This document shows positions 13,231 to 41,629 of a stretch of 64,000 nt of DNA, piece by piece. This DNA is from Macrostomum lignano (taxonomy: Eukaryota): positions 103,398-167,397 of the forward strand of contig NIVC01001412.1 in assembly GCA_002269645.1 (NCBI GenBank), written 5' to 3'. Each line of letters begins with the position of its first letter. The stretch's first letter is position 1. The notes below the pieces were generated by a model. The model worked only from the letters and a program-made list of their open reading frames with translations, made no database searches and was not told where the DNA came from. The translations under genes and the position numbers were made by a program.

Positions 13231-13260
13231 TTTTTAACTAAAAATAAAATAAAATTAGAA

Positions 13261-14934: not shown

Positions 14935-14945
14935 AGGTACAAGAC

Positions 14946-15092
14946 TAGTCCCAAAATGACATACCTAAGTCCCAAAATGACACATCCAAGTCCCAAAATA
15001 ACACATCTAAGTCCCAAAATGACACATCTAAGTCCCAAAATGACACATCTAAGTCCCAAAATGACACATCCAAGTCCCAAAATGACACATCT
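14946..15092. repeat. 21-bp tandem repeat (CTAAGTCCCAAAATGACACAT), about 7 copies
   Basis: Directly visible in the intergenic spacer. Confidence 0.93.
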
Positions 15093-15136
15093 TCTAAATT
15101 ATTTATTATTAAAAAAAATTTTTATCATAGAAAAAA

Positions 15137-15934: not shown

Positions 15935-15937
15935 AAT

Positions 15938-16691
15938 TTGCTATTAAAAGATGTCTATAATTTTGCAGGTGAATCCATTTCTGGCAACAGCGCTCTTACA
16001 TCAGCTCAAATATCCATCCTTGACAGGCGATATATCAACAGCGACGAAGAGATCCCAGAGATCAAACTGAATAAAAACAGACTGAAACAATTAGAGCGCT
16101 CCATGCACCAGTTGCAAATAAACATGGAAGATCTCAGGCTTAAAGTAGCTAGGCAGAAGTTTGAAAGTGATAAGCTTTATGCGCAGTTGTCACAGCACTA
16201 ATGAACTTAGGTCAGAAATAACTTCGGCAGTCTCGCAAATCAACGGCTTAAGAACAAATTTAGCATCGACAATTAATCTTCTGAGAAACTCCATTGATAG
16301 GCGGATGCGCATTTTTGAAGAAGGAGTTTTCAGAAACACAGTTAAAGTGAGGAATTTAGAAGAGTTCATGAACCAGTCAACAGCATTGCATGATAGAATT
16401 AAAGAAAACGTCGCAACCAACACAGCTAAAGTGAATAATTTAGAAGAGTTCATGAACCAGTCAACAGCATTGCATGATAGAATTAAAGTAAGAATTACTG
16501 CAAATAAAGTCTTTGTAGATTTAATTTTTACCGAATGGCAGAAATCGTTGAGAAGAATCAGTCGTCTTGAACGCTTGCATAATCTCAAAAACATTGACGC
16601 TGAAGAGGCACCACAGACCACAAGGGAAATAAGTGATCCAACCGACTTGTTTGAGATCAGACGTAGAATGGAGCTCACAGACAATGAATAG
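15938..16691 (+). pseudogene. Coiled-coil Polinton protein (possible fibre/spike), one frameshift
   Basis: Two overlapping heptad-rich ORFs with an internal 28-aa duplication (KVxNLEEFMNQSTALHDRIK). Start codon uncertain. Confidence 0.45.
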
Positions 16692-16800
16692 GCAGATTCG
16701 AAGAGACCCGTTGCCGTGACTGCAGACGAAGCAATCAACCGTAAAACAAATCTAACACCACCAACTAGTTGTCGATTTTTTTAAAAAAATTCCCTTAAAA

Positions 16801-17467
16801 ATGGATGCTCAAAATTCTCTTTATGATCCGAAGGCTCCCACAACACCTAGTGCACCTAGTGCACCCCAATATGAGCAACAAAAACTCTACCCCGTCATTA
16901 CTTGTAACTCTCAACAGTTTCGACTGGTGGAGATTCAAAAAATGCGCGATGATCTTGAAAAAAATATTTTCCACAACACAAAGAAAATTAAGCGCTATGA
17001 CAACCACTGTAAATTTTTCGACTACAGCAATATGATTCTAGGATCTGTGTCTGTTCTATCTGGATCTGCTGCAGCTGTCTCAGTGTTGCCAGCCATCACA
17101 GCCCCAATCGCAATCCACTTGGTTCAGTGGTGCTGCATGTGGACTTATTTCAGCAATTACTGGAGCATTAGCGCGAAACAGGCGAAAAAAACTAAAGCAG
17201 CTACAGGAGAAGCAAGTAAAAGAGAAAGGGGTGCACACATCAATCATAGGGTACATTTCAAGGGCAATCGAGGATAAGTTCATTTCAGAGGATGAGTTCA
17301 AAACCATTCAGGATCTTTATGAACAATCAATTCGAATGAACTTGAACATGGTCGGTACTGATGACATGAGTCAGCTGAAAAATGAACTCGAGAAAGTTTT
17401 TCAACATTATGCGGAAAGAAAGTCGGCAAGAAATTCGGCAAGAAGGACAACGAGAAATGCACAATGA
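16801..17467 (+). pseudogene. GasderminX-like Polinton membrane-active protein, frameshifted
   Basis: QQFRLVEIQKMRDDLE, then a hydrophobic GSVSVLSGSAAAVSVLPAITAPIA stretch, then ISRAIEDKFISEDEF. This is the pattern of the adintovirus 'gasderminX' family. Split over overlapping frames. Confidence 0.7.
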
Positions 17468-17471
17468 ACCC

Positions 17472-17872
17472 CTATGAAACACAGGTACGAATAATTTCCT
17501 TGTAGGTCTTTCGTGTTTTGGTCATTGCATACAAAACAGTCATGCACAGCTCACCGCAAATATCACTGCTAAGACCTTGGAGAATAAAGTCTGAGCGATA
17601 AATTTTTTTATTATTTTTCCCTTCATATAATTTCTTAGCTCTTCTGGTACTGCCGTCCCATAGCTATCGAAGTAATAACACTTGTGCTTGCGATCGGGAT
17701 CAATCACCCAGCAAACCCAATGAGATCCTGGCTTATCGGCGGTGTCAAAGTTCATGATGCCGCATTCCTTTCTTAGAGGAAAATCAGGCAGAGTGTCCCT
17801 CATAAATATTCCTCTAAAGTTTGGGATTTCCAGTTCGTTAGCCAAATCTTCAAGAAAGTTATTTGTCGTCAT
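17472..17872 (-). pseudogene. Adenain-like cysteine protease, one frameshift
   Basis: GSHWVC (His), YYFDSYG (Asp). After a shift in an A-run near 17605 the frame reads LQGLSSDICGELC (Gln, Cys), with stop at 17472. Confidence 0.88.
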
Positions 17873-17917
17873 TTTTTATGAGGTTTATTAAACTTTCTCT
17901 TAAACCTAAACCCAATC

Positions 17918-20900
17918 TCAACCTCCTAAACCCAATCTCCAGTGCCCGAACGGTAGACTGTTAATATTGTCATCAAAAATGAATCTCTTGTTATCTGCAC
18001 CTGACAGTCCAATCTTCTTTTGCTGAATTGTGTGAATAATATTATTTTTAGATTGTAGCTTTGAGAACTCATGTGATGTCTTTTTGTTGCAATTCAAGGC
18101 GTCTCTGTATTCAGCTTCATTAATTTCCTTCCTAACCACACGTTTCGGAATTCCCTTTGATTTTTTAATTGGGTCTGACGACTCACATTTTACAAAATAG
18201 GACTTTGCTCTCAACCCAATGAATTCAGTGATTATGTCACCAGCAATCTCGTCCTTCATTTTCCCAATCACTTTCTTGTTAGTGGCGTCAAACACTTGAT
18301 CGCCATTCTGTGTCCTGCAAGATTCATCATACTCAGACAAGTCAAACAAATCTTTTTGCTGCAGCATGTCCTGATAAATGTCTTCTGTTTGAATGTCCAT
18401 AATAAAACTGTCTGTGTCAGTGTACAAGAGTTTCATTTTATCCTTGTACTGCTGCTTCATGCCATAGAAGAACTGGTACATCAGACGTTTTGATTCGTCG
18501 AGAACAGTGACACCTGTATAGATCGGCTTGCGCAGCGTCACCTTGGTTTTGTAAAATATGATCACACCTAAGTAGCTATTAAAGATATGGAGTTCTTTGA
18601 ATGTTGGCTTTGACATATTTGCCTGAATAACAGCAGGCTCTGATGAGGTAACAAGTTTCAGGTTTGTTCTTTTCCGCTCATTCTCAAGAGTCTTGCCATA
18701 GACAGAGTTGTTGGCCAACTTAAAGAGGTTCTTGTCAAAGTCGTTGGTTGCTTTGGTCCTAAACTGGGTGTTCTTATCAATGTAGGGTTTCATCCACGCT
18801 TCCTCTGTAAATGTAAGAGCCCTGTGAACTTTGGTGACCCTGCAACCAAGTGAGATAAAATACTGAAGCAGTTTGTAATGGATTTTGTAACGTGTCTTGT
18901 TGTTTAGATTCTGTGTTAGTTTCTCTGTATGTTCTTTTTCTGTTCCTGACAGGTGCCAAGTTCCATTGGGAGTTTCGATTATTTTCGGGCACTTGATGTT
19001 CTCTGGGAAGGGTGGAAAGTCAGAGAAATAGTCGTGAAGCTCTGGTGGAATGTAAACATCAACCTCATAAATGGCAGCCAATGAAAAGTCCCGTTTGAAT
19101 TCTGATGAGGGTAGCCATCGAAAATCTCTAACTGGAAGATCTTGACTCATCGCCCACCCGTAGAGATTATTAGCGTCCAAGTAAGTAATGTAGTTTGAGG
19201 GCTGCTCCTTATTGTAAGATTCAATGTAGGGATTGTTTGCTTTTGCATACCTGTTAACACAAATTGAGATTCCCCCTCGCTTTGACGATTCGACAAAATT
19301 GTACATGTCAATGTCTGTAAGAAGTTCAATGTACCAATCTGGATCTTGATCCCATTTCATTTTAAGCAAAGATTCCCAGCTAGTGGCAGGGAGACACATA
19401 ATGTGCAGGATCGAGGCCATATGCTGTGTACCAGGTATATCTGAAGGTTTCAAACACATCGGCCAGCAGAAACACATCTGTGTAGAGGTAAAGCAGGTGA
19501 TACTGGAAGAAGTTTTGACAATTAAAGTAATTATAGACATGCTTCGCGTGCTCATAGTCTTTGTCAGAGATTCCAGAGTCTGTTAGCTTTGAAAAGAACT
19601 TTCTTGTGGTGGTAAACCTTCTTCAAATACGTGATACCCAGTAATATTCTCATAGGGGTAGAAGCCTTTGGTTTTCAGGAGTTTAAATGATTCATCACTG
19701 TTGTAAATTTTACTTGCAAACATCTTTGTATATGTACATTGTTCATCTTTTAGATTCTTGCTTAGTTCGTCTAGACTGGCAGCTAGAAATTGATATGAAT
19801 CCTTCAGTCTTATTTTACCTTTACCCGAATTATCCTGTTTAATATCAACACACTTAAACTTCTCCTTGTTTTCTGCGATGCAATCAAGGTGTATGTCTGG
19901 AATCATGCCGATTTTTTCAACTATTAAATGCATGTCATAGTTCTTTGCGTTGTGACAAAATATCGTTAGATCATGAATGTTCGATTTTAGCTTTAGATTA
20001 CAGGTGTTATGCGCTGCACCTCTAAATTTCCCAGTAAAGTGGCAGTGGTCCCTAACGGTGGGGTTTTTAATATTAGTGCAAGTTAACTGTTTCCTGCAGA
20101 TGTGGCAATGAGTTGCTGATAGGAAATTGCTTTCATCCTCCTCAGTCATCATTATTGGAACAGGTTGAAAGGTGCTAATCACTCTTTGCAACTCTAACAT
20201 TCTGGCAATAAACAGCTCCACACACTGCTCTCCAAAGAAATAATTATACTCAACAAGTCCTTTTGTATTAATAAAGGCATATGCTACTGAATTGGGGACA
20301 TGTTTTAGAGTTTGAGTTTGTTTTTGAGTTTCTTGAATGATTGAGCATTCGAAATCAGCATATACAACAAATGGGAGCTTCTCCATCTTGTGATAGTTCT
20401 TAAACCGGAGATACTTCTCTTCAGCTGAAAGAAGAGAGCAGTTGGTCGGGTGATCCTCGCATGATAATTCATGCTCTGTTAGTTTTTCAAAGCGTTCAGG
20501 TCCATTGTAATGCTTAAGGCACAAGCGGCAGATGGCAACAGCCTCGTGATGATTATTCAACTGCTTGTGAATGAGTCTTGAAAGATCTTTAATCCAAACA
20601 TAGTGAGCCTCCTCTAGTAAATTACCAATCACTAGAAGATCCACTTCAATCCGCCTTTTCCCCTCGGGATCTAAAACGTCTTTGCTACATCTGACCGGTT
20701 GAACTTTCTCAGTTTTTTCACTCCACTCAAAGACTGTGATTCTAATTTTGTTATTGAAACACTTCTTCTAGCTTGGGATCTGAGAGATCGCCAAGCCTCC
20801 TTTGTCAAACCTGATTCCCTTCTTTTCGCATTCAATGAGATAGTAGTTGAAATAATTTTGATAATTTGAGGTTCTTTCGGGGTGGTGAGGGACACTATCA

Positions 20901-21741
20901 TGAAAAAGTGCAGAAAGAACTGCCCATAGAGCACAGCAATTGTCTTTATTTTTAACATTTATGCAAGCTTTTTTGCCGGCTAGCTTGTGTGGGAGCTCTA
21001 TATAAGAGGAGGCTTTAAGTGGGTCATATTTCATGACCATGACAGTCGCTCTTTGAATCCCTCCCACGACCCATCCGGAACCTCTGGATGTAAACGCTTC
21101 AATTTTCTTAGTGACATCTTGAAGGAAAGGATCCAGTGTGTCTGTTGGGGTGAATGGCTTTGCCTTTGTTGTCATGTATTGTAATACTCGAGATGCTCAG
21201 TGGGTTTCGCAGGCATATAAAACGCAATCTTGAATGATATCTGTAGTTTAAAGGTCTTGCGTGTTTTGAGTGTGTGATCAACAACTGATTGGATGCTGTC
21301 TTTATAGTCGTAGATGTTTGCGGTGGTATCCTTAATTGGGATTGTGTACTCTATGTAATGTTCTGTAAACTTCCTCTGTGCAAAATTAATCTCTTCAATG
21401 GCAAGCATCGACTCTTTTAAATGGATTAATTGCTCTAATTTCTCTTGTTCCTGCTTATTTTGTGGGTACTTTGCTTTTTCACCAGTGAGAGTTTCGTATT
21501 TGTTAACTAAGTTGCGACTCCTCTCTTGGTGTTCCTTTGCAGGATTTTTTATAGGCGCATACTGGTTGGATTCTAATTGATTGATGATTTCCAACTGTTT
21601 TTCATAGCTTCCCAGGTGACCAGGGTCGGTGTTGAACTTTTGTTTGTATGCTTCTCTTAGTGAATTACTTTTGTCTTGAAATGAGACGCCTTTTGAAAAA
21701 TGTTTGTTGACTAAATCTTTTGCTGGATTAGCTTTTGGCAT
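17918..21741 (-). pseudogene. polB: Protein-primed family B DNA polymerase with endonuclease VII-like insert, disrupted
   Basis: GSGW/SSYIELP/INVKNKDNC N-terminus, YADFEC, RDHCHFTGKFRGAAHNTCNL, HNAKNYD, YLYTDVFLLADVFE, YLDANNLYG, KLANNSVYGK and YTDTDS. Lesions near 21175, 20768 (stop), 19590 and 19395. Confidence 0.93.
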
Positions 21742-21864
21742 TTTTTCTCTAAAATAAAAAAAATTTTTGAGGGTGACCACCCTCATAGAAAAGTTGAACT
21801 GTTTCTACATCCTATCAGTAGTATTAGGTTTATGAAGCTGGATAAAGTAGGGTTTTAAACCTCA

Positions 21865-22311
21865 TCACATGCGCATTATTGTAAACCCAGCATTGTGCAG
21901 TGTCATGATAGCTTTGACAATGTCAGACTTGCTTATAGAATTTTCATTCTCACAATCATCACGATCGGGGCAGCCCTCTCCTGCCTTAATTGTTATACCT
22001 TTGTCTCTTGCAATCTTTTGCAATTCTAGCTGGTGGGCTCTATCATTCCCAGCTTTAACAGCAGTTGCTACACCTCCAGCTACACCACCTGCGGCACTTA
22101 CAGCGCCTGCAATGATTGGGATAAGAGCTGCTAATGGTAGGATTCCTCCTGACTTTTCATCTGTGATGCTGTGTGTTTGCTCATTACACTGAACTATTTG
22201 CTGCACGGGATCGATTTTTACTTTGGCACCTTTAATTGATATAAGACCTGGTTTCTTTGATTCAATGATTTTATTGAGTTTATTGATGGTTCTGGTTTCA
22301 ATCTTTGTCAT
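21865..22311 (-). CDS. Adenovirus pX/pVII-like core protein precursor
   Basis: SGG|ILPLAALIPIIAGAVSAAGG resembles the adenovirus pX C-terminal GG|ILPLLIPLIAAAIGA segment. Confidence 0.65.
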   Translation of the reverse strand: MTKIETRTINKLNKIIESKKPGLISIKGAKVKIDPVQQIVQCNEQTHSITDEKSGGILPLAALIPIIAGAVSAAGGVAGGVATAVKAGNDRAHQLELQKIARDKGITIKAGEGCPDRDDCENENSISKSDIVKAIMTLHNAGFTIMRM

Positions 22312-22327
22312 TTTTTATTTTAATATT

Positions 22328-23365
22328 TTAATTAATTTCTGTGTCAGCCGGTATCACTAGGAGTTCAGCTCTAGTGAATGACCGCGTGGGGGATTTAGGG
22401 TTAAAGGCCTGAGATAAAAAGTAATATTCTCCAGAGTCGGGGGTAAAATGTCTGTCTATTTTATGTACATCAAGGCTGAAGTATGGATCTGTAGCTCTTC
22501 TTTTGGTGTCCTTCTCTAGCTCTCCAGGTAGATATAAAAAGCGTAGAAACTCAGAGTTTGTCAGTATGTATGGTGATTCAACTCCTGGAAGCTTCGGGTA
22601 GTTTGAGGTGTGTTTTGTGTTGTGCGTGTTGTGTGGGGTTGTCGTGTTGTTGTCTGTTCTATGAGATGACTTAAGTTCGACAGTGTCTTGTTTAATTGCA
22701 TGGGACGGTTTCAATCCAGTCATGCGCGTGACTTCATTGTTCAGTTGTTCTATAACAGTGGGGAGCCGGTCTGTCCACTTGGTATAGTACTGACCACTTT
22801 TTAGTTTCAGCTCTTCAGCTGTCTGCTTAGTGAATAGCCTCTTGGCTAGAGTTAGATTGAATCTTTCCACAAAAGCCTGGTCTCTGTGCAAGTTTGTTCT
22901 GCCATAGCGAATCTCTGTATTTTTCTTTTCCATAAGGGATTTCACTGCACCCATGAATTCCTTACCCGGGTCGGTCATAAAGATTTGGGGGTATGTGAGC
23001 GGAGAGTTTTTATAAATATCTTGGAGGGCGGTTTCAACTGCTTCTGACTTCTTCGTCTTAAGCGGTCTCGCTTCCTTATATCTGGAGGCAACGTCTGTAA
23101 TTGTGAGAGCATACTTGTAGCCCGAGTCATTGGGGAGAAACAGAAGATCTGCTTGGTGCGCCTCATTAGGTTTATAAATACTGAAATGGGGCCTTTCAAA
23201 TTTTACTGGTGGGAAATAGACTTGAAAGACAGCCTGCTTAGAGAGCCATTTTTCTACTGTAGCTTTTGGTTCCTTACTTAGTTCTGCGAGTTTGGTGACT
23301 GCATTTTTTCCTACAAAGAATCCTTTGTCGCTGTAGTAGAGTTTTTTAAGTTTCTGATCTGTCAT
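22328..23365 (-). CDS. int: Retroviral-like (rve) DDE integrase
   Basis: Intact 345 aa. HQADLLF (D), MTDPGKEF (D), AFVERFNLTL (E). No evident chromodomain. Confidence 0.93.
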   Translation of the reverse strand: MTDQKLKKLYYSDKGFFVGKNAVTKLAELSKEPKATVEKWLSKQAVFQVYFPPVKFERPHFSIYKPNEAHQADLLFLPNDSGYKYALTITDVASRYKEARPLKTKKSEAVETALQDIYKNSPLTYPQIFMTDPGKEFMGAVKSLMEKKNTEIRYGRTNLHRDQAFVERFNLTLAKRLFTKQTAEELKLKSGQYYTKWTDRLPTVIEQLNNEVTRMTGLKPSHAIKQDTVELKSSHRTDNNTTTPHNTHNTKHTSNYPKLPGVESPYILTNSEFLRFLYLPGELEKDTKRRATDPYFSLDVHKIDRHFTPDSGEYYFLSQAFNPKSPTRSFTRAELLVIPADTEIN

Positions 23366-23396
23366 TTTTTTTAAAAATAAAATTTAAAATAAAATA

Positions 23397-23897
23397 ATGC
23401 AACGCTCTGGTGGTAAGTTAGATTCACATGGACTGATAGAAAAGCTTCCTCATCCAAACAAAGGCTGGACCATTCCCGGGTACAAATATTGTGGGCCTTT
23501 GAATCCACTTGAAATACAGTTAGATACAAACAATAATACAAATCCTGGGCATGAGCCTGTGAACGAGCTAGACTCTGTCTGCATGTGGCACAATGTTAAA
23601 TATAGAGATTTTCCTGAGGAGAAGAATCGCTGGGACAAAGAAATGCTTAAGAGACTAGACAATATAGGGGCTTCAAGCGGATTTCGTGAGTCGATCGCTC
23701 GGAAGCTAGTTAAAGCTGTTATTTTTGGTAAAACAAAGTTGGGGTTGGGGGTTGAAGGCGAGGGCGGGTGCACAGGGAGAGAGGGCTGGTGCACGAGGAG
23801 AGAGGGCGGAGGCTCAGGAGCGGGGTTTATTTTGTGCGCTCCTAACAATGAATTGGGAAGAGTTTTGAAAGATATGGGGGTAGAGAGAGACGCTTGA
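23397..23897 (+). CDS. Parvovirus VP1u-like phospholipase A2 (PLA2X)
   Basis: PGYKYCGPLN Ca-binding loop and PVNELDSVCMWHNVKY (HD replaced by HN). KLGLG motif downstream. Confidence 0.8.
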   Translation: MQRSGGKLDSHGLIEKLPHPNKGWTIPGYKYCGPLNPLEIQLDTNNNTNPGHEPVNELDSVCMWHNVKYRDFPEEKNRWDKEMLKRLDNIGASSGFRESIARKLVKAVIFGKTKLGLGVEGEGGCTGREGWCTRREGGGSGAGFILCAPNNELGRVLKDMGVERDA

Positions 23898-24077
23898 GTC
23901 GGGAAGGATTTAAAAAAAAGACTCATCGATATATTAAATTTTACAAAATAGCACTAATTTTACAAAAACAAAATAAAATGAAAGACAGTTGAAATTTATT
24001 AGTGTTTAAGAAAACTATTATTAGTTTAAATTCATTATATTTAATCATTAAAAGCAATACATTCCATTTAATACATG

Positions 24078-25468
24078 ACTACTAAGGACCCATTTATCCG
24101 CCCTTTTTGGAGGTGGGGTGGGTGTCAACCCTCCTCGCCTCTCATTGGCTAGCGCGCGCGCCGCAGGCGCGTGGCGCCAAGCGCCATCCAGGCGCCAATT
24201 AGGCGCCCATGCCGCAGGCGCACCCTCCCGATATGTACCCGATATGTATGCCCACCCTCCCGATATGTACCCCGATATGTATGCCCTCCCGAGCCGCAGG
24301 CGCACCCTCCCGAGCCGTAGGCGCCCATGCCGCAGACGCCCATGCCGCAGGCGCCCCGAGTGTACACTCTCCCATGCCGCAGACGCCCATGCCGCAGGCG
24401 CCCCGAGTGTACACTCTCCCATGCCGCTGGCGCCCCGAGTGTACACTCTCCCCAGTACGGGTGTACACTCTACCACTCCCCCGATATGTAGTCAACGATA
24501 TTAGGCTAGTGAAAACTACTTATAGTAGATGAAATTGCGTATATTTACATAAAAAGTAGATAAAACATATTGGTAGGTGTGAATAATGACGCATAATGTA
24601 TATTAAAATGTACATATTGGAGCATAATAGGAATATGAGCAGCAAAATACACACAATGTAGGCGCATGGGCAGAAATAGACAAAGCAGGTACTGTAGGCG
24701 CTACATAGGTGGAAATACACACAGTATATTGCACACACTCTAGATTCCAATTATGTAGGTGCATAGGCTAAAATACACACACTGTAGGTGCAAATTGAGT
24801 ATAATACACTAAAATTATAATACATAGCATATAATGTAGGCGCATTTTAAACAATACATTTTTGCATAATAACCCGCAGGTACAAATTTCAGTGCATAGG
24901 CTAAAATACACACTGCAAATTGAGTATAATGCAGGAAAATTGTGACATATACAACATATGTATGCAAATTAAGCATATAATGTAGGTGTAAAGTAAAATA
25001 CAAGCAACCGGCTCCCTAGTAAACAGACACGCCCCCAGAGCCAGGGCCGGGGGATCCCAAGTACAGTGCGGTCAGAGAGGAGTAACATAGAGAAATTCCT
25101 CCCCAAGCCCCAAATAAGGTTTTTTTCATGGGGATCCCAAGTACAGTTCAGGCAGAGAGCATTCCAATCCTCCCCAAATGGGGGTTATCAAGGACCCCTC
25201 ACATTGCACAGGGCGGGCAGAATAACAGACCGCATACAAATAGGGGTTTTAGCGGATCCCAAGTACAGTGCGCTCCCGGGTGTCAAATGATGCCCCAATG
25301 TACAGTGGAGGTAGAGTAACAGACCGCATACAAAGAGAATTCCAGTCAAACTTTACAGCACCTCCCACCCCAAATGAGGGTTTTAGTGGATCCCCAGAGG
25401 GTAGCTCTCCAAGTTGAGGGATCCCCCCGTGTGTTGCGAGGCCCAAGTACAGTGCAGGCAGAGAGTAA
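24078..25468 (+). repeat. Left TIR (1,391 bp) of the nested element
   Basis: Reverse complement of 31799-33189. The mirrored ORF translations are identical and homopolymer lengths checked by eye match. Confidence 0.93.
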
Positions 25469-25708
25469 CAGAGTACAAAGAGAAATTCCCTTATCAGTCA
25501 AACTCGAGCTCGATCTTCAGCCAGGGCAGTCTCCTCCTCATCAGCGCTCTCGAAACATCTGTCAAAGTAAACAATATTTTAGTGTTCAATATAGACAGAT
25601 TATATCTAATTTATATACAATTTATATGAAATTAAGCTTACCAAAATCGGGTTCGCGCTGTACGGATGCGGCACGACTCAATTAGCAACCCTCGTCAAAC
25701 AGATTTCC

Positions 25709-26167
25709 CTAAGGGTAGGGTTTGATGCTGTCAAGGCAGTCCTGCAGATTTTCCTCTGTCTTGGCTCTCTTGGCCTCGGGCTCCAGCTTGAAGAGCTTGT
25801 CCAAACGGGAGGCAAACATCCGGCGCCACAGTTCAGGCGTGAATTCGATCGTGTAGCGCCAATTAAACTTTGGGTCCACGTTGAGCCAATTGCGCCGCAA
25901 ACGGATCCTCCCTCGCGAAGCTTCAACTGCCTTGAAATTGCCCAACAGGACCCGCTTGTTCACGTGAAGGCGGGCAGCGGCCTCCAGGTCAGCCCGCGCA
26001 GCTTCGAGCTTCTTCCACTCTGGCTCGGCCAAGTAGATTGCAGGGAAGCCGTCCTTCCACACTCCAGCCTCGTTGGTGTAGAGACGCCGAATTTCAATCA
26101 AGTTGTGTTCAGTTTCAAATGTGGGCTTCCGCGCCACAAAGTTATCGTATAGAGAGATAGAAGACAT
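25709..26167 (-). CDS. PC4-like ssDNA-binding protein (putative)
   Basis: LIEIRRLYTNEAGVWKDGFPAIYLAEPEWKKL matches the PC4 pattern (VDIRxxYxxxxGxxKPGxKGIxLxxxQWxxL). There is a possible degenerate second repeat. TATA box upstream. Confidence 0.65.
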   Translation of the reverse strand: MSSISLYDNFVARKPTFETEHNLIEIRRLYTNEAGVWKDGFPAIYLAEPEWKKLEAARADLEAAARLHVNKRVLLGNFKAVEASRGRIRLRRNWLNVDPKFNWRYTIEFTPELWRRMFASRLDKLFKLEPEAKRAKTEENLQDCLDSIKPYP

Positions 26168-26411
26168 GATTTAGCAGCAGCAGCAGCAGAGAGCTCTCTG
26201 ACAGCCGTGCAGCGCCTTATATACCCCCGGATGGAGGGTGGGGTGGGTGGTGATTTTGAGGGTGATTTTTGATGATTTTGGTTGGTTTTTGGCGATTTGA
26301 CCAATAGCAGGCAAGCTGAGCAGATTTTTTAGTATATATACAGACCCCCAGAGCCAGGGTAGAGAGATAATGCTTCTCTCCGCTCGCTCTCTCACACTCT
26401 CTGTTTGCAAA
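26168..26411. promoter_or_regulatory. Bidirectional Pol II-type promoter of the nested element
   Basis: Minus-strand TATATAAG at 26216-26223, CCAAT at 26301-26305 and plus-strand TATATATA at 26333-26340, between divergent ATGs at 26167 and 26412. Confidence 0.55.
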
Positions 26412-29400
26412 ATGGCTAAACGCAGCGCCACCGCAACTGCTTTCCTGGCTGACAAGAGGCAACGTCTTTATGGTAAGTTTTAATTAATTTCTGTCTAGAC
26501 TGTAGTTGCTAGGGTGGGGGTAGGGGCTGAGCAGCAGCAGCAGCTGCAGGGTCTGTGGGACCGCAGAGTAAACAACAAAGACTGGGACTGCTGCGACAGC
26601 TGCAGGGGTCTAGACTGGAGTTGCTAGGGTGGGGTGCTGCGGCAGGGTCTGTAACAGATAATCGTTGGGGCGGGCTAGACAAGTTACAGCCGGTTTAGCA
26701 GCAGCAGCAGCTGCAGGGTCTGTGGGACAGCAGTCTAGACTGGAGCCTCGGGTGGGGTGTTGTCTAGACAGGGAGGGGTGTGCTGATAAGAAATTGCTGC
26801 AAAAACAGACAGTTGCTAGGGTGCTGCGGCAGATAAGAAATTGCTGCAAAAACAGATAATCGTTGGGGCGGGCTAGACAAGTTACAGCCGGGTGGGGGCA
26901 GAGAGTTGCTGGGACTGTGTAGCACGGGGGCAGACTGATAGGGGGCTGGCTAGACAGGCTGCAGCTAGGTGCAAATTGCTGCGACAGAGAGTTGCTGTGG
27001 GAGGGGTGAGTAAACAAAGACTGGGACTGCTGCGACAGGCTGCAGCGGGGGTGCAGATAAGAAATTGCAGAGAGTTGCTGCGGGGACAGCAGAGTAAACT
27101 CTGTTAAGAAATTGCTGGGGCTAGGGCGGGGAAACACGCTGGGGCCAGGAAAATGACAGATTCTTCTGGTTTTTTATCTCCTTGTGTTTTTTCAGACGCG
27201 TTTGTCCCGCCAACACAGCCGGAATCTGTTACCGGACCGGGTGAGTTATCCTGCCCCATTTCCCACACAGAACCGGGCTGACTCACACTCCCCCATTCCC
27301 CCCATGCAGGTTTTACGGCCCGGCTGGATAATCAGCGTGACCTGCCCAAGTTTAGGGCAAAGGGTGTCGAGTATGTGGTGCGTATTACCAACACCGAAGA
27401 TTTGCGGGAGGTGTTTGCCGACATGCTCGAAGTTTTCAAGCAAGATTTGGCTGGTGATGACTTTATGGCCGCGAAATTCGAGAGCGACAATATGCTCAAA
27501 GCAGCCCATACTCCCCCGGTGCGTGCAGCCCGCATGACGGCTGAATTGTTGTTTAAGCACATCAACAAGATTGTGCAGCCGGATGCCACTGTCCTGACGG
27601 GCAACTTTTCTATCCGTCTGCTAAAAGCCTGGGTGCCCCGAGGTGGCTGTGCCCTCGAGAACAAGCATCTAGAGGAGCGGCACGCCTTCTCCAAGCACTA
27701 TGTCCGCATCACCAACTCGGACAAGAGGTGTCTGCTGCGCGCTCTGGTCGTGGCCTGCGCCTACCTGCAATTCGTGGCCAAGTCCATCACCGAGAAGGTG
27801 TGGCGCACGATCAAGGCCAATTCGTCCAAGCAGACTAAGCTTGCGACTGAGCTACAAATCGAAGCTGGCCTCTACACGGTAAGTTTCTAGTATTTTTCTG
27901 ATAAGAATTTTTACACAGTATCGTGGAATACTAAAAGATATATTTTCTGATAAGATTTTTTACACAGTATCGTGGAATACTAAAAGATATATTTTCTGAT
28001 AAGAATTTTTACACAGTATCATGGAATACTAAAAGATATATTTTCTGATAAGATTTTTACACAGTATCATGGAATACTAAAAGATATATTTTCTGATAAG
28101 ATTTTTTACACAGTATCAGGGGATACTAAAAGAACCATACTCTGATAAGAAATTTTACGATAAGGAACACTAAAAGAAATATTTTACCCTCCACACAGAC
28201 TCTTCAAACCGTCTCGCAGGCTGGTCCTTTCGGGGTGGATGCACTGCCCGAAGCGATCCGTGCCCTGAACCGGCTGCATCCGGGGCACGATTTTGGTGTA
28301 CGCGTGTACCGCGCAGAGGAGGCCAACAGGTGCATCTTCAACCTGCCTGGCACCGAGATTCTGCACCTGCACCTGGTCGAGCAGCACTTTAATGTGGTTA
28401 CCAAGCTGCCTGCGTTTTTCGGCTCCGTGCGCTACTGCCCCAAGTGCGAGATGGCCTACGACTGCGCCAACGCCAAGCACAAGTGTGCGGATGCCTGCAG
28501 TACATGCAAGACTCCGGGCTCCAACTGTAAGGCAAACCGCGCATATGTAAGATGCCATGATTGCGGGCTAAATTGCTATAATGCTCAGTGCCTAGAAAAT
28601 CACAAACGCAAGAATAAGGCCGGCAGATCGCGCTGTGATTCGGTCCACGTTTGCGGCACGTGTGGCTATCTAGAAGAACTAAAAGTAGGCCAGCCCCCTG
28701 AGCATCAGTGTGGTTATGCCAAGTGCCCAGTCTGCAAGCAGTACGACGAAACTGCCACCCACGAGTGCTTTGTCACCCCGCCCAAAGCCAAAGAGTCTAG
28801 CGCCCCGTATGTTTACTATGATTTCGAGACGTACGTGGACTCTGGCAAGCAGCATCGGGTACACTTGGTTACGGCTGCCACCTCCTGCGAGGCGTGTCCC
28901 AAACTCTTCCCCAGGCCCCGCTGCAGCGTGTGCGGGGGACTACACAGCTCAGCCAATTGCATTGCGGGACGCAATCTGGCACTCGATTTCACGAGCTGTG
29001 TCTCGCACAATGACTGTGCCTGTGGGATGCGAGAGTTTGTATCTGTCGGGCCGCACTCTATCGATGCCTTTTACTGCTGGCTGACTAGTGTGTTCAAGCA
29101 GGGGGCAATTGCTATTGCGCACAATGGCTCTGCGTATGACGCATTCCTCCTGCTCGGCGCCCTACTCAACGGACTGGCCAAGAAGAAGCCGCAAGTGATC
29201 TTCCAGAACAGCCGCCTAATGTACATGAAGTGCGACAAGATCACCTTCAAGGACAGCCTCAATTTCATCCCTATTGGTCTGGCGCAATTCCCAAAGGCGC
29301 TTGGTTTGGGCACCCAACTGACCAAAGGAGATTTCCCGCACGTGTTTAACCAGCCGGAAAACTGGGGGTACGTGGGACCCTACTGCTCAATTGATATGTA

Positions 29401-31573
29401 TGGAGGAAAGAAAAACAAGCAGCATGACTCCATCGCCGACTGGCTGGCCAAGCAGGAGGGACAGGTGTTTAATTTCAATAAGGAGTACCTGGACTACTGC
29501 CTGCAGGACACGTTAATTTTGCGGGAAGGCTGTCTAAAGTATGCCCGCCTGATTAAGGACATTTGCGGACTGGACGCATTTGTTCAATCCAACACCATTG
29601 CGGGCTTGGCCATGGCAGTATTCACCACCAAGTTTATGGAGCCCAACACTCTTGGGGTGATTTCCCGCCGGTCCGATGTACAGTCGCACAAGGCGCGGTG
29701 CTGGCTTGCGCATTTGAATGCAACCGAGTTTGGCGGCCGGTTGAGGACAGCCGATTCTGGCGGCGAGGCTTTCGCCATGGGCCGTAAGGTCGACGGCTTC
29801 GACCCAGAGACCAGGACAGTGCTGCAGTTTCATGGCTGCTTCTACCATGGCTGTCCCAAGTGCTTCCCCAACGGCGACGTGCTGCACCCGCTCAAGAACC
29901 AGCCAATGCGGGCGATTTATGAGGAGACTGAGCGCTTCACCCGGCTGCTCTCCACTGCCTACAATGTACGTGTCATGTGGGAGCACGACTATCAGGACGA
30001 GGGAGCGCCAGTCCAGCAGCCTATTCGCCTGGAGGATGCCCTGTTTGGCGGCCGTACCGAGGCTTTTGTCCCGCACGCCGAGGCCACCGAGACTGTAGAG
30101 CTGCGCTATCGGGATGTGGTAAGTTTGTACACTTGTACACACAGTTGACATGCGTTTGAGTTTATCTTATCCTTATCCCCTAGGTGTCGCTCTACCCGAC
30201 TGTCAACAAGTTTGACAAGTACCCGGTCGGGCACCCGGTACACCACCCCGAGCCTCATCTACTGGATGAGCTGCAGCTGGCCCGGTATTTTGGCATCGCC
30301 GAGGTGTCGATTCTGCCGCCAACCAATCTCCACATCCCGCTACTGCCCGCCAAGATTAACAAGAAGCTGGTTTTCGGCCTCTGCCGCGTCTGCATGGAGA
30401 CCCAGTGCAGCAGCGAGTGTACACACACTGACGCTGAGAGAATGCTCCGCGGCACGTGGTCGACCCCAGAGCTCCACAAGGCCCTGCAGTTGGGTTACAA
30501 GCTGCAGTCAGTTCATGCCCTGGCCTATTGGACCGAGACTCGCACGGGTCTGTTTGCAGATTATGTAAACACTTTTTTGAAGCTCAAAGCCGAGTCTAGC
30601 GGTTCGCCGGGGATGGCTGAGGACGCCAAGGCTGCCTACATGGCCAGCTTTTTCGAGCGCGAAGGCGTCCGGCTGGAAAAGGTGGAAGAAAATCCTGGCC
30701 TGCGCTTTGTTGCCAAGATTTTTCTAAACTCGTAAGTTTTTCTACTTGCAGTGGGGACCATGTTTTTCTACTTACAGTAGCCAGATATACAAAAATTTAT
30801 TTTTCCCCTGCAGGCTCTGGGGCAAGTTCTGCCAGCGCGACGACCTGACCTCCACAGAGATTGTGGACAGCTACGAGGCGTGGCTGCAGCGCCTGACCGA
30901 CCCCTCGATCAAGGTCAAGTCGTGCGAGCCAATTGGGGAGAGCTTCATGATGCTCGAGTACAAGCCCCGATTTGGCGGTGCTGGCGAGCGGGCGTTCAAG
31001 TACGCTAATGTACCTATTGGCGTTTTCACCACCTCCCACGCCCGGCTGCGACTCTACGAGGCTCTGGAGGGTCTAAGAACCCGCGTCATTTACGCCGATA
31101 CCGATTCGTAAGTAATTTTTTCACTGTCTCTGTCTCTCTTTCTCCCCTTAACACTTTTTTATCCTTCTCCTCCTCCCAGGGTCGTATACCGCTGCTCCCC
31201 GGGCGAGTACGAGCCTCCGGGCGGTTCGAGTTTGGGGCAGTGGACTTACGAGGTACCTGCTGGCTGCCGCATGGTACAGTTCACCACGGGAGGCCCCAAG
31301 CTCTACCGGTACGTGGTGGAGAAGCCCGACAGGTCACTGTACTCGGTGCTCAAGTGTAAGGGCATCAGAGTCACCCCCGAGATTTCCGAGCGCGAGGACG
31401 AGCTGCAGGAAATTCTACGCCACGGCGGGACTGTACGGCTGCCCCAGGCCAAGTTCAGGCGCGATAAGGCCAGCTGCACAATAAGGACCCTCGAGATGGA
31501 CAAGACTTTCCAGCGCGTGATGACTAAGAGGGTGTATGGGGCCGCTAGCCGCCCGTATGGCTTTCGTGAGTGA
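26412..31573 (+). CDS. polB: Seven-exon protein-primed DNA polymerase B (1,276 aa after splicing)
   Basis: Exons 26412-26472, 27196-27240, 27310-27878, 28199-30118, 30184-30731, 30814-31107 and 31180-31573. All introns are GT-AG with matching phases; total 3,831 nt. Motifs: YDFET, AHNGSAYD, FKDS, KGDFPH, VDG...QFHGCFYHGC, FGGRTE, DV|VSLYP, NS|LWGKF, YADTDS|, GPKLY, KCKG. Confidence 0.93.
27895..28175. repeat. 49-bp tandem repeat inside pPolB intron 3
   Basis: TTTTCTGATAAGAATTTTTACACAGTATCGTGGAATACTAAAAGATATA, about 5.5 copies. Confidence 0.9.
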
Positions 31574-31798
31574 GTGAAAGATAAGGATCTGTCTTTGCAC
31601 GCCTCCCTGCCCGGGATTCCCCTATGCTCTAAACTCACCCCAACTGTGCATTCTGGCGGGGATCATTTGACACCTCCCCGTACATTGGACGGGATCCCTT
31701 CAAGTGTTAAAACTCCCATTTGACACCTCCTGAACATTGAGGCTGGGTCCTTCATCATTTGACACCCGGGAGCGCACAGTACATGGGGGCGGTCTCTA

Positions 31799-33189
31799 TT
31801 ACTCTCTGCCTGCACTGTACTTGGGCCTCGCAACACACGGGGGGATCCCTCAACTTGGAGAGCTACCCTCTGGGGATCCACTAAAACCCTCATTTGGGGT
31901 GGGAGGTGCTGTAAAGTTTGACTGGAATTCTCTTTGTATGCGGTCTGTTACTCTACCTCCACTGTACATTGGGGCATCATTTGACACCCGGGAGCGCACT
32001 GTACTTGGGATCCGCTAAAACCCCTATTTGTATGCGGTCTGTTATTCTGCCCGCCCTGTGCAATGTGAGGGGTCCTTGATAACCCCCATTTGGGGAGGAT
32101 TGGAATGCTCTCTGCCTGAACTGTACTTGGGATCCCCATGAAAAAAACCTTATTTGGGGCTTGGGGAGGAATTTCTCTATGTTACTCCTCTCTGACCGCA
32201 CTGTACTTGGGATCCCCCGGCCCTGGCTCTGGGGGCGTGTCTGTTTACTAGGGAGCCGGTTGCTTGTATTTTACTTTACACCTACATTATATGCTTAATT
32301 TGCATACATATGTTGTATATGTCACAATTTTCCTGCATTATACTCAATTTGCAGTGTGTATTTTAGCCTATGCACTGAAATTTGTACCTGCGGGTTATTA
32401 TGCAAAAATGTATTGTTTAAAATGCGCCTACATTATATGCTATGTATTATAATTTTAGTGTATTATACTCAATTTGCACCTACAGTGTGTGTATTTTAGC
32501 CTATGCACCTACATAATTGGAATCTAGAGTGTGTGCAATATACTGTGTGTATTTCCACCTATGTAGCGCCTACAGTACCTGCTTTGTCTATTTCTGCCCA
32601 TGCGCCTACATTGTGTGTATTTTGCTGCTCATATTCCTATTATGCTCCAATATGTACATTTTAATATACATTATGCGTCATTATTCACACCTACCAATAT
32701 GTTTTATCTACTTTTTATGTAAATATACGCAATTTCATCTACTATAAGTAGTTTTCACTAGCCTAATATCGTTGACTACATATCGGGGGAGTGGTAGAGT
32801 GTACACCCGTACTGGGGAGAGTGTACACTCGGGGCGCCAGCGGCATGGGAGAGTGTACACTCGGGGCGCCTGCGGCATGGGCGTCTGCGGCATGGGAGAG
32901 TGTACACTCGGGGCGCCTGCGGCATGGGCGTCTGCGGCATGGGCGCCTACGGCTCGGGAGGGTGCGCCTGCGGCTCGGGAGGGCATACATATCGGGGTAC
33001 ATATCGGGAGGGTGGGCATACATATCGGGTACATATCGGGAGGGTGCGCCTGCGGCATGGGCGCCTAATTGGCGCCTGGATGGCGCTTGGCGCCACGCGC
33101 CTGCGGCGCGCGCGCTAGCCAATGAGAGGCGAGGAGGGTTGACACCCACCCCACCTCCAAAAAGGGCGGATAAATGGGTCCTTAGTAGT
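31799..33189 (-). repeat. Right TIR (1,391 bp) of the nested element
   Basis: Reverse complement of 24078-25468. Confidence 0.93.
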
Positions 33190-33316
33190 TACATGAAGTT
33201 GAATTTTTAATTATTGAAATATTAAATTAATATTACTATTTATTAACAATGCATTTTAAAGTTATAAAATGGATAAGTTAATAACTATAGCTACTAAGGT
33301 GTATGATTACCTATGT

Positions 33317-33502
33317 AATTCTGGACCGTCCAGAATTTTCTGGAAATATTTGTTACTTATAGTAGGCTTGAATCTAAACTACATTCAATTCTGGACCGTC
33401 CAGAATTTTCTGGAAATATTTGTTACTTATAGTAGGCTTGAATCTAAACTACATTCAATTCTGGACCGTCCAGAATTTTCTGGAAATATTTGTTACTTAT
33501 AG
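33317..33502. repeat. 70-bp direct repeat (about 2.7 copies), each starting with a 21-bp palindrome
   Basis: AATTCTGGACCGTCCAGAATT at 33317, 33387 and 33457. Confidence 0.9.
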
Positions 33503-33559
33503 TATTTTTTCAGAGTCACCTTCATATTGTCCATCGTCTTCCTTCTTCCTCTTCACTGC

Positions 33560-34521
33560 TTAAACAAATGTCTCCATCTTCTCCTCTGTCTCTTCCAACA
33601 GGCTTCTTTCGTCTTCGTCTTCACCTTCCCATATTATTGTGAACTCCGTTTCTAGCTTGCATCGGAAGTTTTCGTCGTTGAATGCTTCCTTCTCGATAGT
33701 CTTTTTGAACGTAAGCAATGTCTCCATGCTGTAGCCGGAGAACAAGATGTTAGGAAATTTGGTTAATAAACCATGAAATGTGAAAAGCCGCTGACCAAAT
33801 TTAACCGGAGTATCCAAGCGTCTGGCTGTCTCTTCCGTTGTTAGACCAAACTTGTTCTTGTACTTTGCAAATACTTCCGCTTGTTTTTTCTTCGCTAGAC
33901 ACCCCAGAACTTCAACGTCTGCGATAAAGAAGTCCAGATTGATGTATTGCGTGCGCATGCTCTCTTCATCGTCTGGCACATCGGCCGTGCACAACTCCCT
34001 GGCGTTGTTAAATCTAAAAAGAAATAATATGCAATCATAATGTGAATTAGATCAAAGGTTTGCTTGCATAAATCTCTAATCTAATGTCAAATCTATCTAT
34101 AATCATGTTTGATCACGTTTAAATCACCCAATCAAGAATTATGAGAAATTTTGTCAATGTGTTTCACTATAAAAACTAGTAGAGAGCAAAAGTAATAAGC
34201 AAGTATCGCTCACAAGTAAAATAATAAGCAAAAGACTTACCTTGTCTGGATCACAATTTCTTCCTTTCTTATGTTGTTCATCGTTTCCTTTAACCTTGCT
34301 ATGAACCGTACGTCTCTTCTTTCATTCTCGACATCAACGCGTTTGGCCTCCTCGGATCTTTCCTTCTTAGAAGATTGCTCATCAATCTTTTCAAGACTTT
34401 TCAATAATGCAGCTTGTTCTTCCTCGGTCATTGCCGAGATGGTGATTGCTGTGCTGGTTGTGTCCTTTGTATTGATGTTTTTAATTTTATTTAGAATTTT
34501 ACTTGGCGTCTTGGAAGCCAT
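33560..34521 (-). CDS. Two-exon Polinton orphan gene (244 aa)
   Basis: Exon 34521-34241 (donor AG|GTAAGT, phase 2), intron 34240-34014 (TTTTTAG acceptor), exon 34013-33560. 735 nt, in frame. TATATATA about 80 bp upstream. Confidence 0.7.
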
Positions 34522-34728
34522 TAGATTAAAAAATTCGAGTAAGGTTTAGCAAGGGCGAGGTGGAGCAGGCAGGGTGAGGCGAGGGGCGGTGTGAATCGGC
34601 TGTATATATACAATTGGTGTGGGCTCGGAAATCTATTTATAGGCATAGGCATTTTTATTTATACCTAGGCAGTATTTTCAATTTATGGTTTAAAATTAAT
34701 AACAATTAATGGTTGCCAAAGCGGAAGT

Positions 34729-34975
34729 AAAATGGAAAGCACATGTGGAGTGCGTGGCATGGGTTTTATTTTTAGAACGTACGTCTACACTCTACAAGGT
34801 ACTACCTTGTAGTTGGCAACTACATGCAACCGCCTTATATCTTCAGCCAATGGAGAGAATGGAAAGCACATGTGGAGCGCATGGCATGGGTTTTATTTTT
34901 AGAACTTACGTCTATACTCTACAAGGTACTACCTTGTAGTTGGCAACTACATGCAACTGCCTTATAACTTCAGCA
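34729..34975. repeat. Direct repeat of about 128 bp (2 copies) with internal hairpins next to the right TIR
   Basis: ATGGAAAGCACATGTGGAG...CTACAAGGTACTACCTTGTAGTTGGCAACTACA occurs twice. Confidence 0.85.
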
Positions 34976-34981
34976 AGAAGT

Positions 34982-35561
34982 TGATTTAAAGTTTTAGGGA
35001 TCTGGTTTCGCGTTGCAAATTGAATGTGGGAAGAAGAATGCAGATTATTTTCTTATTGTTTCGAAAATGCTATGGGTGGATGTCAGTGGATGATGTCTGT
35101 GTCAGTGAGCATAACGGGTATCAGTGGATACCTGCTCTGATTCTGTCAGGGATAATATGGATGGATTTAATGGGATTATGTTCGAAGTTTTCGGAGCAAG
35201 TGCGGCCCCTCCCCTTTTTCATGATTCTGTCAGGGATAATATGGATGGATTTAATGGGATTATGTTTGAAGTTTTCGGAGCAAGTGCGGCCCCTCCCCTT
35301 TTTCATGATTCTGTCAGGGATAATATGGATGGATTTAATGGGATTATGTTCGAAGTTTTCGGAGCAAGTGCGGCCCCTCCCCTTTTTTATGATTCTGTCA
35401 GGGATAATATGGATGGATTTAATGGGATTATGGAGGACGTTTTGTGAGCGAGTGCGACCCCCCTTTTTTTCTGATTCTGTCGGGGATAATATGGATGGAT
35501 TTAATGGGATTATGGAGGATGTGAAAAATTTTGTCCCAAAAGCCCCCTCATGCCTTCTACT
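34982..35561 (-). repeat. Right TIR of the Polinton
   Basis: Mirror of 10432-10766 with extra internal subrepeat copies. Ends CTACT, followed by the TSD TATTTT. Confidence 0.9.
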
Positions 35562-41181: not shown

Positions 41182-41629
41182 ACGGCAATTCGAACATCAT
41201 TGTATCACGCTGGCGCGCGTTAGATGCACGATTTACTGTGCGTCTAATGTAGGTGTCTATGGCAATTTTCTATCTGAGTAAAGGCAACAAGCGTGCGTCT
41301 AACGCGTGCGTGTAATGCACGGAAAGTGAGTATATTTTAATAAGTATACTTCTGCTACAAGTACAACGAACGAATAACAGGGAACTGTGTAAACAAGGTC
41401 GACATGAAATGCCGGTAGAGCGCAGCTCGGATACAAATCAACGTGGCTGGAGCAAAGTATTCGCCATTCCTCTTGCGAAGTGAGCCATAGAAGTATCGCA
41501 ATAGACTGTCGATCTCGCGCGGTGTAGAAGTCGCCAAATCACGCTGAACTGACGGATGGTTCTCCATGAAGCTCTGCAACTTACCGACATAATATTCGGT
41601 AGCCTTTGTCACACTTTTACTAGCAGCGG

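What the first reader, a model, noticed from the sequence alone, without database searches (positions are those of the whole stretch)
24078..33189. Minimal integrase-less, capsid-less pPolB replicon nested inside a Polinton: candidate Polinton satellite
Seen: a discrete 9,112-bp unit with 1,391-bp TIRs and a perfect 6-bp TSD (TACATG). It sits in the AT-rich spacer downstream of the PLA2 gene and disrupts no Polinton gene. It encodes only an intact pPolB and a PC4-like SSB. Known: a 6-bp TSD is the signature of Polinton rve integrases, and pPolB + SSB + TIRs is the minimal kit for protein-primed replication of linear DNA (phi29, adenovirus, linear plasmids). The nested pPolB (Cys-rich N-terminus, VDG...FHGCFYHGC nuclease insert, NSxWGK) is a different lineage from the host Polinton pPolB (Endo VII insert, NSVYGK), so it is not an internal duplication. 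Inference: a self-replicating linear plasmid-like element that borrows integrase, and possibly capsid, from Polintons, analogous to transpovirons or satellites.
Basis: partly seen in the sequence, partly recalled or inferred. Interest (0 to 1): 0.95.

Follow-up and report, generated by a model that had tools for sequence, protein, structure and literature searches.

The report
Polinton virus split into two segments
This 9-kb mobile element looks like the DNA-polymerase half of a virus-like transposon (a Polinton) that has split in two in a flatworm genome: a separate element elsewhere carries the integrase and capsid genes but no polymerase, and the two halves share their end sequences, an arrangement my literature searches did not find described.

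Summary
The 9,112-bp unit is real: perfect 1,391-bp TIRs, 6-bp TSD, empty sites elsewhere. It encodes a PC4-like protein and a 1,276-codon pPolB split by six introns, five supported by spliced contigs. It belongs to a dispersed family (A) under purifying selection. Nesting in the flanking Polinton looks incidental: that Polinton has other termini and an unrelated polymerase.

The likely partner is a separate 10.5-kb family (C1) carrying integrase, double-jelly-roll capsid, penton-like protein, protease and ATPase, with no polymerase found. A and C1 share only their terminal 31 bp, and share a mosaic pool of variants of it. A second pair (B + C2) repeats the pattern with its own end pool and similar synonymous divergence. 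A non-coding 9.25-kb palindrome family carries the same ends.

Best reading: a bipartite Polinton whose halves complement each other in trans. The organisation is shown; complementation and packaging are inferred. An unsampled intact parent is not fully excluded, because genome searches were capped. Ten literature searches found no segmented Polinton. Interest 0.88.

The parts
24072..24077 (.). Left target-site duplication TACATG
   Evidence: single copy at two empty sites
24078..25468 (+). Left terminal inverted repeat, 1,391 bp, identical to the right arm
24078..24108 (+). Terminal 31 bp: fixed ACTACTA, variable mosaic block, TTTT; variant pool shared with capsid family C1; inferred origin and integrase end
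25709..26167 (-). PC4-like ORF, 152 aa, divergent from pPolB
   Evidence: pN/pS 0.40-0.59 on few changes
26412..26472 (+). pPolB exon 1
   Evidence: spliced joint in 3 of 3 RNA-like runs
27196..27240 (+). pPolB exon 2
27310..27878 (+). pPolB exon 3: N-terminal region, putative terminal-protein end and OTU-like Cys motif (labels inferred from PMC11161782, not modelled)
28199..30118 (+). pPolB exon 4: OTU-like His motif, Cys-rich region, exonuclease motifs, VSR-like insert (motif labels recalled), start of palm; PF03175
   Evidence: pN/pS 0.07-0.17 against 17 copies
30184..30731 (+). pPolB exon 5 (SLYP motif; PF03175)
30814..31107 (+). pPolB exon 6 (WGK, DTD motifs)
31180..31573 (+). pPolB exon 7 to stop codon
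31799..33189 (-). Right terminal inverted repeat
33190..33195 (.). Right target-site duplication TACATG
10432..35561 (.). Flanking, unrelated one-piece Polinton (about 16 kb without the insert; TSD TATTTT; DJR capsid, ATPase, protease, EndoVII-type pPolB in three ORFs at 17918-21175, rve integrase, PLA2). Landing site only.

Best explanation
The element is the replication segment of a bipartite Polinton. Segment A (about 9 kb) supplies a spliced protein-primed DNA polymerase and a PC4-like protein. Segment C1 (about 10.5 kb, elsewhere in the genome) supplies rve integrase, double-jelly-roll capsid, penton-like protein, protease and packaging ATPase. Shown: complementary gene content, separate integration each with 6-bp TSDs, a shared and shuffled pool of terminal 31-mers, splicing, purifying selection, and a second pair (B + C2). 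Inferred: A's polymerase replicates both linear segments from the common terminal origin in the nucleus; C1's integrase recognises the same ends and integrates both; ends are exchanged by template switching or recombination during co-replication; segments are probably packaged one per capsid. Non-coding 9.25-kb palindromes with the same ends are snap-back defective genomes that exploit the pair.
For: A lacks integrase and capsid genes yet has 6-bp TSDs in 12 of 12 pPolB-verified copies read at both ends. C1 read in full at one locus has integrase, capsid (pLDDT 96, PBCV-1 capsid match E 2e-18), protease, ATPase and no pPolB. The ATPase end is closed by the terminus in 20 of 23 C1 loci; 12 of 15 measured copies are 10.4-10.7 kb. 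No pPolB hit in 36 stretches (37 kb) of capsid-segment and palindrome DNA, while controls hit. Terminal variants: A versus C1 not separable (p 0.89, 2 identical variants), B versus C2 p 0.10 (1 identical), all four cross pairs p 0.0005; nearest other family is the partner for 40 of 41 variants. pS A/B 0.67 versus C1/C2 0.51-0.78, capsid and protease pN/pS 0.06-0.15. Same-type polymerases in metagenomes have Polinton genes in cis in 9 of 11 loci of 10 kb or more.
Against: No experiment shows complementation, free linear DNA or particles. Genome searches scored only part of their candidates (96 of 174 pPolB, 150 of 292 ATPase, 40 of 162 C1 TIR, 150 of 1005 integrase), and only one C1 and no C2 copy was read in full. 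A and C2 also share a 23-bp motif just inside the terminal block, so the pairing is not perfectly clean. Three of six B-ended loci were not verified to carry pPolB, and two B copies lack the PC4-like gene. pS near 0.67 is close to saturation and dates little. Short A-ended units of 1.3-7 kb exist, which weakens a packaging-size argument. All evidence comes from one assembly with duplicated loci.
Confidence: 0.72

Rival explanations
1. A and C1 are complementary deletion derivatives of a one-piece Polinton that still exists in this genome or population and does the work; I did not sample it.
For: All genes are ordinary Polinton genes; searches were capped; same-type polymerases elsewhere are one-piece. 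A few oversize copies were only sampled or not read (C2210, C1313, C4549, C150 sampled; 15-kb B-ended C1945 not read).
Against: A and C1 share only 23-31 terminal bp and no inner TIR, unlike deletion products of one parent. Both halves are under purifying selection and exist as two old lineages. Sampled oversize copies gave no pPolB signal; the largest C1 copy owes its size to a P-element. No listed A/B pPolB match lies near a listed C1/C2 ATPase, and C1945 has no ATPase or integrase match.
Confidence: 0.13
2. A and C are independent elements. C is a polymerase-less PLV-like element copied by some other enzyme; the shared ends reflect gene conversion among elements using one integrase, and A is simply a parasite of C.
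For: Most PLVs lack pPolB (PMC13215967 passage). The genome holds hundreds of one-piece Polintons that could supply a polymerase. C1 carries several unannotated ORFs.
Against: No helicase or primase family was detected among 16 C1 ORFs. The one-piece Polinton examined has different termini. Each C family matches one pPolB family in end pool.
Confidence: 0.08
3. One reading: A is a satellite that borrows integrase and capsid from the abundant one-piece Polintons such as the one it sits in.
For: The window copy is nested in such a Polinton; at least two more A-ended insertions lie in other Polinton families. The flanking family is very abundant (98 of 98 scored MCP matches 97-100% identical; 660 candidates).
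Against: Termini differ (ACT... versus AGT...); 9 of 10 other verified copies show no Polinton flank; a cognate integrase carrier with matching ends exists.
Confidence: 0.06
4. Assembly artefact.
For: Perfect long inverted repeats and whole-length palindromes can arise in long-read assemblies; one C2 locus has mirrored flanks instead of a TSD.
Against: Dozens of loci with different flanks and exact 6-bp TSDs, empty sites, spliced contigs from three studies.
Confidence: 0.01

Closest known systems
Polintons/Mavericks (Alpha-class adintoviruses: OTU + pfam03175 PolB; PMC8502044 passages)
   Same: All core genes when A and C1 are summed; long TIRs; 6-bp TSDs; PF03175-type polymerase 27-31% identical to Maverick-type proteins of fish, sea spider, sea urchin and nematode.
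   Different: Polymerase and integrase/capsid sit on separate elements; pPolB has six introns; ends read (ACT)2...(AGT)2; units are 9-10.7 kb against 12.7-24.6 kb for intact vertebrate Mavericks (PMC8097293 section 7).
Bidnaviruses and Drosophila Vesanto virus (PMC4061559, PMC8363768, PMC8502044 passages)
   Same: Segmented genome with Polinton-derived pPolB and matching termini across segments.
   Different: Those are ssDNA viruses with a parvovirus capsid and no integrase; here the capsid is double jelly-roll, the split separates polymerase from all virion genes, and both halves integrate.
Yeast cytosolic linear plasmid pairs, killer plus helper (PMC13348850 passages)
   Same: Two linear dsDNA elements with pPolB ancestry, one depending on the other.
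   Different: Cytosolic and without particles; here the gene is spliced (nuclear), both halves integrate, and the dependence is mutual.
Transpovirons (PMC5499653 passages)
   Same: Small linear TIR-bounded dsDNA without capsid genes.
   Different: They carry an SF1 helicase fused to an inactive polymerase and ride giant viruses; A has a full pPolB with intact motifs and a cognate partner.
Integrase-less entomopoxvirus-associated PLVs (PMC11296320 passages)
   Same: An integrated pPolB element without detectable integrase; integration in trans was suggested.
   Different: Those are capsid-type elements and no partner with shared ends appeared in the passages I read.

Membership tests
Polinton/Maverick | pPolB and rve integrase in the same element (PMC5499653) | tested here: not met
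   A has pPolB only; C1 has integrase only. Met only by the pair.
Polinton/Maverick | Terminal inverted repeats | tested here: met
   1,391 bp in A; about 0.65 kb in C1
Polinton/Maverick | 6-bp target-site duplication | tested here: met
   A 12 of 12, C1 9 of 9 resolved (11 loci tried), B-ended 5 of 5, C2 6 of 7
Polinton/Maverick | DJR capsid, penton, protease, ATPase in cis with pPolB | tested here: not met
   Absent from A copies; present on C1
Polinton/Maverick | End motifs (AGT)2//(ACT)2, (AG)3//(CT)3 or (AC)3A//T(GT)3; intronless genes (vertebrate set, PMC8097293) | tested here: not met
   Ends (ACT)2//(AGT)2; six introns
Polinton/Maverick | Virions or free linear genome with terminal protein | not testable with these tools
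   Only assembled contigs were available
Alpha-class adintovirus PolB | pfam03175-type polymerase | tested here: met
   PF03175 at E 1e-17 and 5e-13
Alpha-class adintovirus PolB | N-terminal OTU-like domain | tested here: inconclusive
   Cys and His motifs located by pattern; motif identity recalled, no structure model made
Non-autonomous deletion derivative | Shares long TIR and interior with an intact parent; coding decay | tested here: not met
   Only terminal 23-31 bp shared with C1; pN/pS 0.07-0.17; no parent found, search incomplete
Transpoviron | SF1 helicase fused to inactivated polymerase | tested here: not met
   No helicase family hit; polymerase motifs present
Bidnaviridae | Segments with matching termini | tested here: met
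Bidnaviridae | Parvovirus-type capsid and ssDNA genome | tested here: not met
   Partner capsid is double jelly-roll; strandedness in particles not testable
Fungal cytosolic linear plasmids | Cytosolic replicon, no particles | tested here: not met
   Spliceosomal introns and TSD-flanked integration indicate a nuclear cycle; localisation itself not testable

The most novel reading that the evidence does not exclude
A multipartite double-jelly-roll dsDNA virus of animals: replication and virion/integration segments are packaged separately, co-infect, integrate independently, recognise each other through a shared, actively shuffled 31-bp terminal code that keeps two such viruses apart in one host, and support genome-length palindromic defective elements.
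Probability: 0.45. Interest if true: 0.95.

Novelty: new variant of a known kind. Interest (0 to 1): 0.88.

Why it matters
Polintons are defined by having polymerase and integrase together, and at least one large survey kept only integrase-linked polymerase ORFs of 900 aa or more (PMC10748475 passages), which would miss both halves of this system. A split Polinton would be a segmented linear dsDNA virus-like element with an endogenous record of both segments, a direct model for how multipartite genomes, linear plasmids and bidnavirus-like replicons arise from Polintons. The shuffled terminal block offers a natural map of what a Polinton polymerase and integrase need at the genome end. The host named by database labels (Macrostomum lignano) is, from my own knowledge, a laboratory model, and the polymerase family is transcribed and spliced, so the open question of whether animal Polintons make particles becomes testable by observation.

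Tried and rejected
Polinton targeting: rejected; 1 of 10 other verified A copies (1 of 21 A-ended loci) showed Polinton flanks, though flanks were short (62-1,550 bp) and compared only with the Polinton sequences I held.

Co-integration of A and C side by side: dropped; the A-type end 1.3 kb from a C1 copy on C382 belongs to the palindrome family, and the C261 case is inserted in palindrome sequence.

Counting all 241 A-type end motifs as polymerase elements: wrong; many are palindromes or short units. End statistics were redone on content-verified A copies (one search replaces).

Conserved terminal hairpin: DNA folding of the 31-mers gave weak, inconsistent structures (0 to -6.9 kcal/mol, which then failed on a classification bug).

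First exon map and pN/pS used a wrong frame; corrected.

PC4-like fold prediction: no usable model. No pPolB tree was built; only BLASTP comparisons.

Viral-contig scans: nothing close; 16 mostly partial hits. No TIR-bounded capsid-less relative among metagenome or viral loci of 8 kb or more. No RNA holder is on record; RNA status of the laid runs is a guess. Earlier findings: none. The 2024 review PMC11426020 was not held.
Full report
OBSERVATION. The unit 24078-33189 is 9,112 bp with a perfect 1,391-bp TIR and TACATG on both sides. A flank pattern matched three places in the genome: the window and two Polinton copies with a single TACATG. The unit sits in a one-piece Polinton at 10432-35561 with DJR capsid, ATPase, protease, an EndoVII-type pPolB in three ORFs, rve integrase and PLA2. 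Database labels of 94-99% identical proteins name the organism as Macrostomum lignano.

GENES. The pPolB has seven exons with GT-AG introns, 1,276 codons and no internal stop. Introns 1, 2 and 5 appear as joints in 3 of 3 RNA-like runs from different studies and not in the one DNA-like run; one contig also skips introns 4 and 6; intron 3 is not among the listed joints (table truncated). These contigs carry alleles of other copies, so they show family expression, not expression of this copy. The polymerase matches PF03175, is about 60% identical to a second family (B), 25-32% identical to the 25 non-Macrostomum homologues compared, and has no BLASTP hit to the flanking polymerase. The divergent 152-aa ORF is PC4-like by indirect evidence.

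FAMILY A. A DNA search scored 18 of 441 candidates and found 17 other contigs with copies. A protein search scored 96 of 174 candidates: 25 near-full-length matches at 95% or more without stops (window included) and 17 at 65-66% without stops (family B). Exon 4 has pN/pS 0.07-0.17 against 17 copies. Six-bp TSDs were found in 12 of 12 verified copies read at both ends. Four other A loci scanned gave no capsid, integrase, ATPase, protease or penton hit. One of 10 other verified copies lies in Polinton sequence. Family B keeps the same intron positions where read; of eight TIR pairs listed, three are 9.2-9.9 kb, four 4.4-7.7 kb and one 15 kb (40 of 226 scored).

THE PARTNER. Searching for the first 20 bp found a 13,959-bp element on C4 that shares the first 23 bp and nothing else. 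Read in full it encodes a Fic protein, several unannotated ORFs, rve integrase (in two frames in this copy), a penton-like ORF, a capsid protein, protease-like and ATPase ORFs, plus a 3.5-kb P-element inserted in one TIR. The capsid model has pLDDT 96 and matches the PBCV-1 double-jelly-roll capsid at E 2e-18 (Atlas 0.98). Penton, protease and ATPase labels rest on position and on similarity to ORFs of other Polinton-like loci, not on Pfam passes. This family (C1) has 23 ATPase loci at 99-100% (150 of 292 scored). The terminus follows the ATPase directly in 20 of 23; three were not listed on that side. Of 15 copies with both ends located, 12 are 10.4-10.7 kb (two of them probably one locus); three are larger. 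Nine loci have an open 379-aa integrase frame. A second capsid family (C2; 17 full ATPase matches at 86-87%) has 73 end motifs forming 27 pairs, median 10.15 kb, range 7.6-14.4 kb. No pPolB query out of 34 hit any of 36 held stretches (37 kb) from C1, C2 and the palindrome, including windows sampled every 1.1-1.4 kb in parts or all of four oversize copies; controls hit, including 21 of 21 windows cut from family B. As a further control, another Polinton family in the genome has a polymerase 3 kb past its ATPase, and 9 of 11 metagenome loci of 10 kb or more with this polymerase type carry Polinton genes in cis (80 of 435 relatives kept).

THE ENDS. The outer 31 bp vary between copies while the next bases are family-constant. 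In the final count (30 A, 20 C1, 11 B-ended, 14 C2 ends; re-cut or allelic duplicates, 12 palindrome ends and 6 unverified ends set aside) there were 16, 10, 7 and 8 distinct variants. A versus C1 were not separable by permutation (p 0.89) and share two identical variants; B versus C2 p 0.10 with one identical; the four cross pairs each gave p 0.0005. The nearest variant in another family was the partner's for 15 of 16, 10 of 10, 7 of 7 and 8 of 8. All 16 columns polymorphic in C1 share alleles with A, and 103 of 190 column pairs show all four gametes, which indicates recombination. Variants are related, so the p values are descriptive. Against a clean pairing, A and C2 share a 23-bp motif just inside the block, and three of six B-ended loci are not verified to carry pPolB. 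The flanking Polinton begins AGTAG, not ACTAC. Synonymous divergence is 0.67 for A/B and 0.51-0.78 for C1/C2 on short stretches, with capsid and protease pN/pS 0.06-0.15: both halves were conserved while apart, and the two pairs are of similar, near-saturated age.

A THIRD CLASS. One 9,253-bp unit with A-type ends is a whole-length palindrome (99.3%), longest ATG frame 132 aa, with an internal block 71-82% identical to the C1 TIR. Seven of eight other units sampled match it at 100% in both windows, the eighth at 90-97% in part; 6 of 6 read at both ends have 6-bp TSDs. It combines sequence of both partners and fits a snap-back defective genome; this is the better candidate for a true satellite.

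MECHANISM. Shown: complementary content, independent TSD-flanked integration, shared shuffled ends, splicing, selection, two parallel pairs. From established knowledge (PMC11161782 passages): Polinton pPolBs carry a terminal-protein and an OTU-like domain, so A can supply primer and polymerase. Inferred: A replicates both segments from the shared origin; C integrates both and packages them; ends mix during co-replication. Unit sizes cluster at 8.5-10.9 kb, including the non-coding palindrome, which suggests one segment per capsid, but shorter units exist. Why positions 8-27 diversify is unexplained.

COMPARISON AND NOVELTY. Neither half meets the Polinton definition (pPolB plus integrase; PMC5499653); together they do. 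Bidnaviruses and Vesanto virus give the precedent for shared termini among segments, yeast killer/helper plasmids for dependent linear pairs. Ten searches listed no paper describing a segmented Polinton or these elements. I saw keyword passages of PMC11161782, PMC10748475, PMC8502044, PMC12220804, PMC13215967, PMC11296320, PMC4061559, PMC5499653, PMC11131425, PMC8363768, PMC13348850 and bioRxiv 10.1101/2024.03.25.586562, passages plus section 7 of PMC8097293, and only listings for the rest; no supplements. Subscription journals and Repbase were not searchable.

VERDICT. Observation confirmed; interpretation redirected from satellite to one segment of a bipartite Polinton (confidence 0.72). New variant of a known kind, interest 0.88.

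Noticed in passing
L147 (G000:C436:114944-124196) and L149-L164: Young family of non-coding, whole-length palindromic 9.0-9.4-kb elements with A-type ends, an internal C1-TIR-like block and 6-bp TSDs.
   Followed up: partly
window 41718-48728: LTR retrotransposon with 231-bp identical direct repeats and long gag-like and pol-like ORFs (41969-47700); BEL/Pao-like by recalled motifs, not tested.
   Followed up: no
window 39856-41650: ORFs resembling tyrosine-recombinase/Crypton-type proteins by recalled motifs; not tested.
   Followed up: no
window 10432-35561: The flanking Polinton family is very abundant and young: 98 of 98 scored capsid matches are 97-100% identical, from 660 candidates. This copy's polymerase and ATPase are in pieces.
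   Followed up: partly
L033:2115-5605: THAP/P-element with 33-bp perfect TIRs, 8-bp TSD and a 981-aa open frame inserted in a TIR of a capsid segment.
   Followed up: partly
L032:778-3657: Capsid segment C1 carries a Fic-domain gene and a weak TBP-like ORF; another Polinton family carries a clear TBP-like gene (L124:1730-2293, PF00352 E 2e-21).
   Followed up: partly
L031:1243-1530: A family-B end abuts a long (AGT)n array resembling its own terminal trinucleotide; target microsatellite or slippage product, unresolved.
   Followed up: no
L098/L099 (G000:C996): A C2 copy has mirrored flanks instead of a TSD; inverted duplication or assembly artefact.
   Followed up: no
G000:C89:826111 and C2647:15534: C2-type ends followed within 1 kb by a PC4-like match at 44-47%; possibly another segment type.
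   Followed up: no
P0039-P0044, P0047: ATPase and capsid proteins 80-84% identical to C1 occur in unnamed Logan, ENA and JGI records, so close relatives exist outside this assembly's labels.
   Followed up: partly
window 1-1389, 1768-2900, 8545-9544, 55998-57110: Several tandem arrays (99-, 21-, 28- and 33-bp units), the first within a 440-aa ORF.
   Followed up: no
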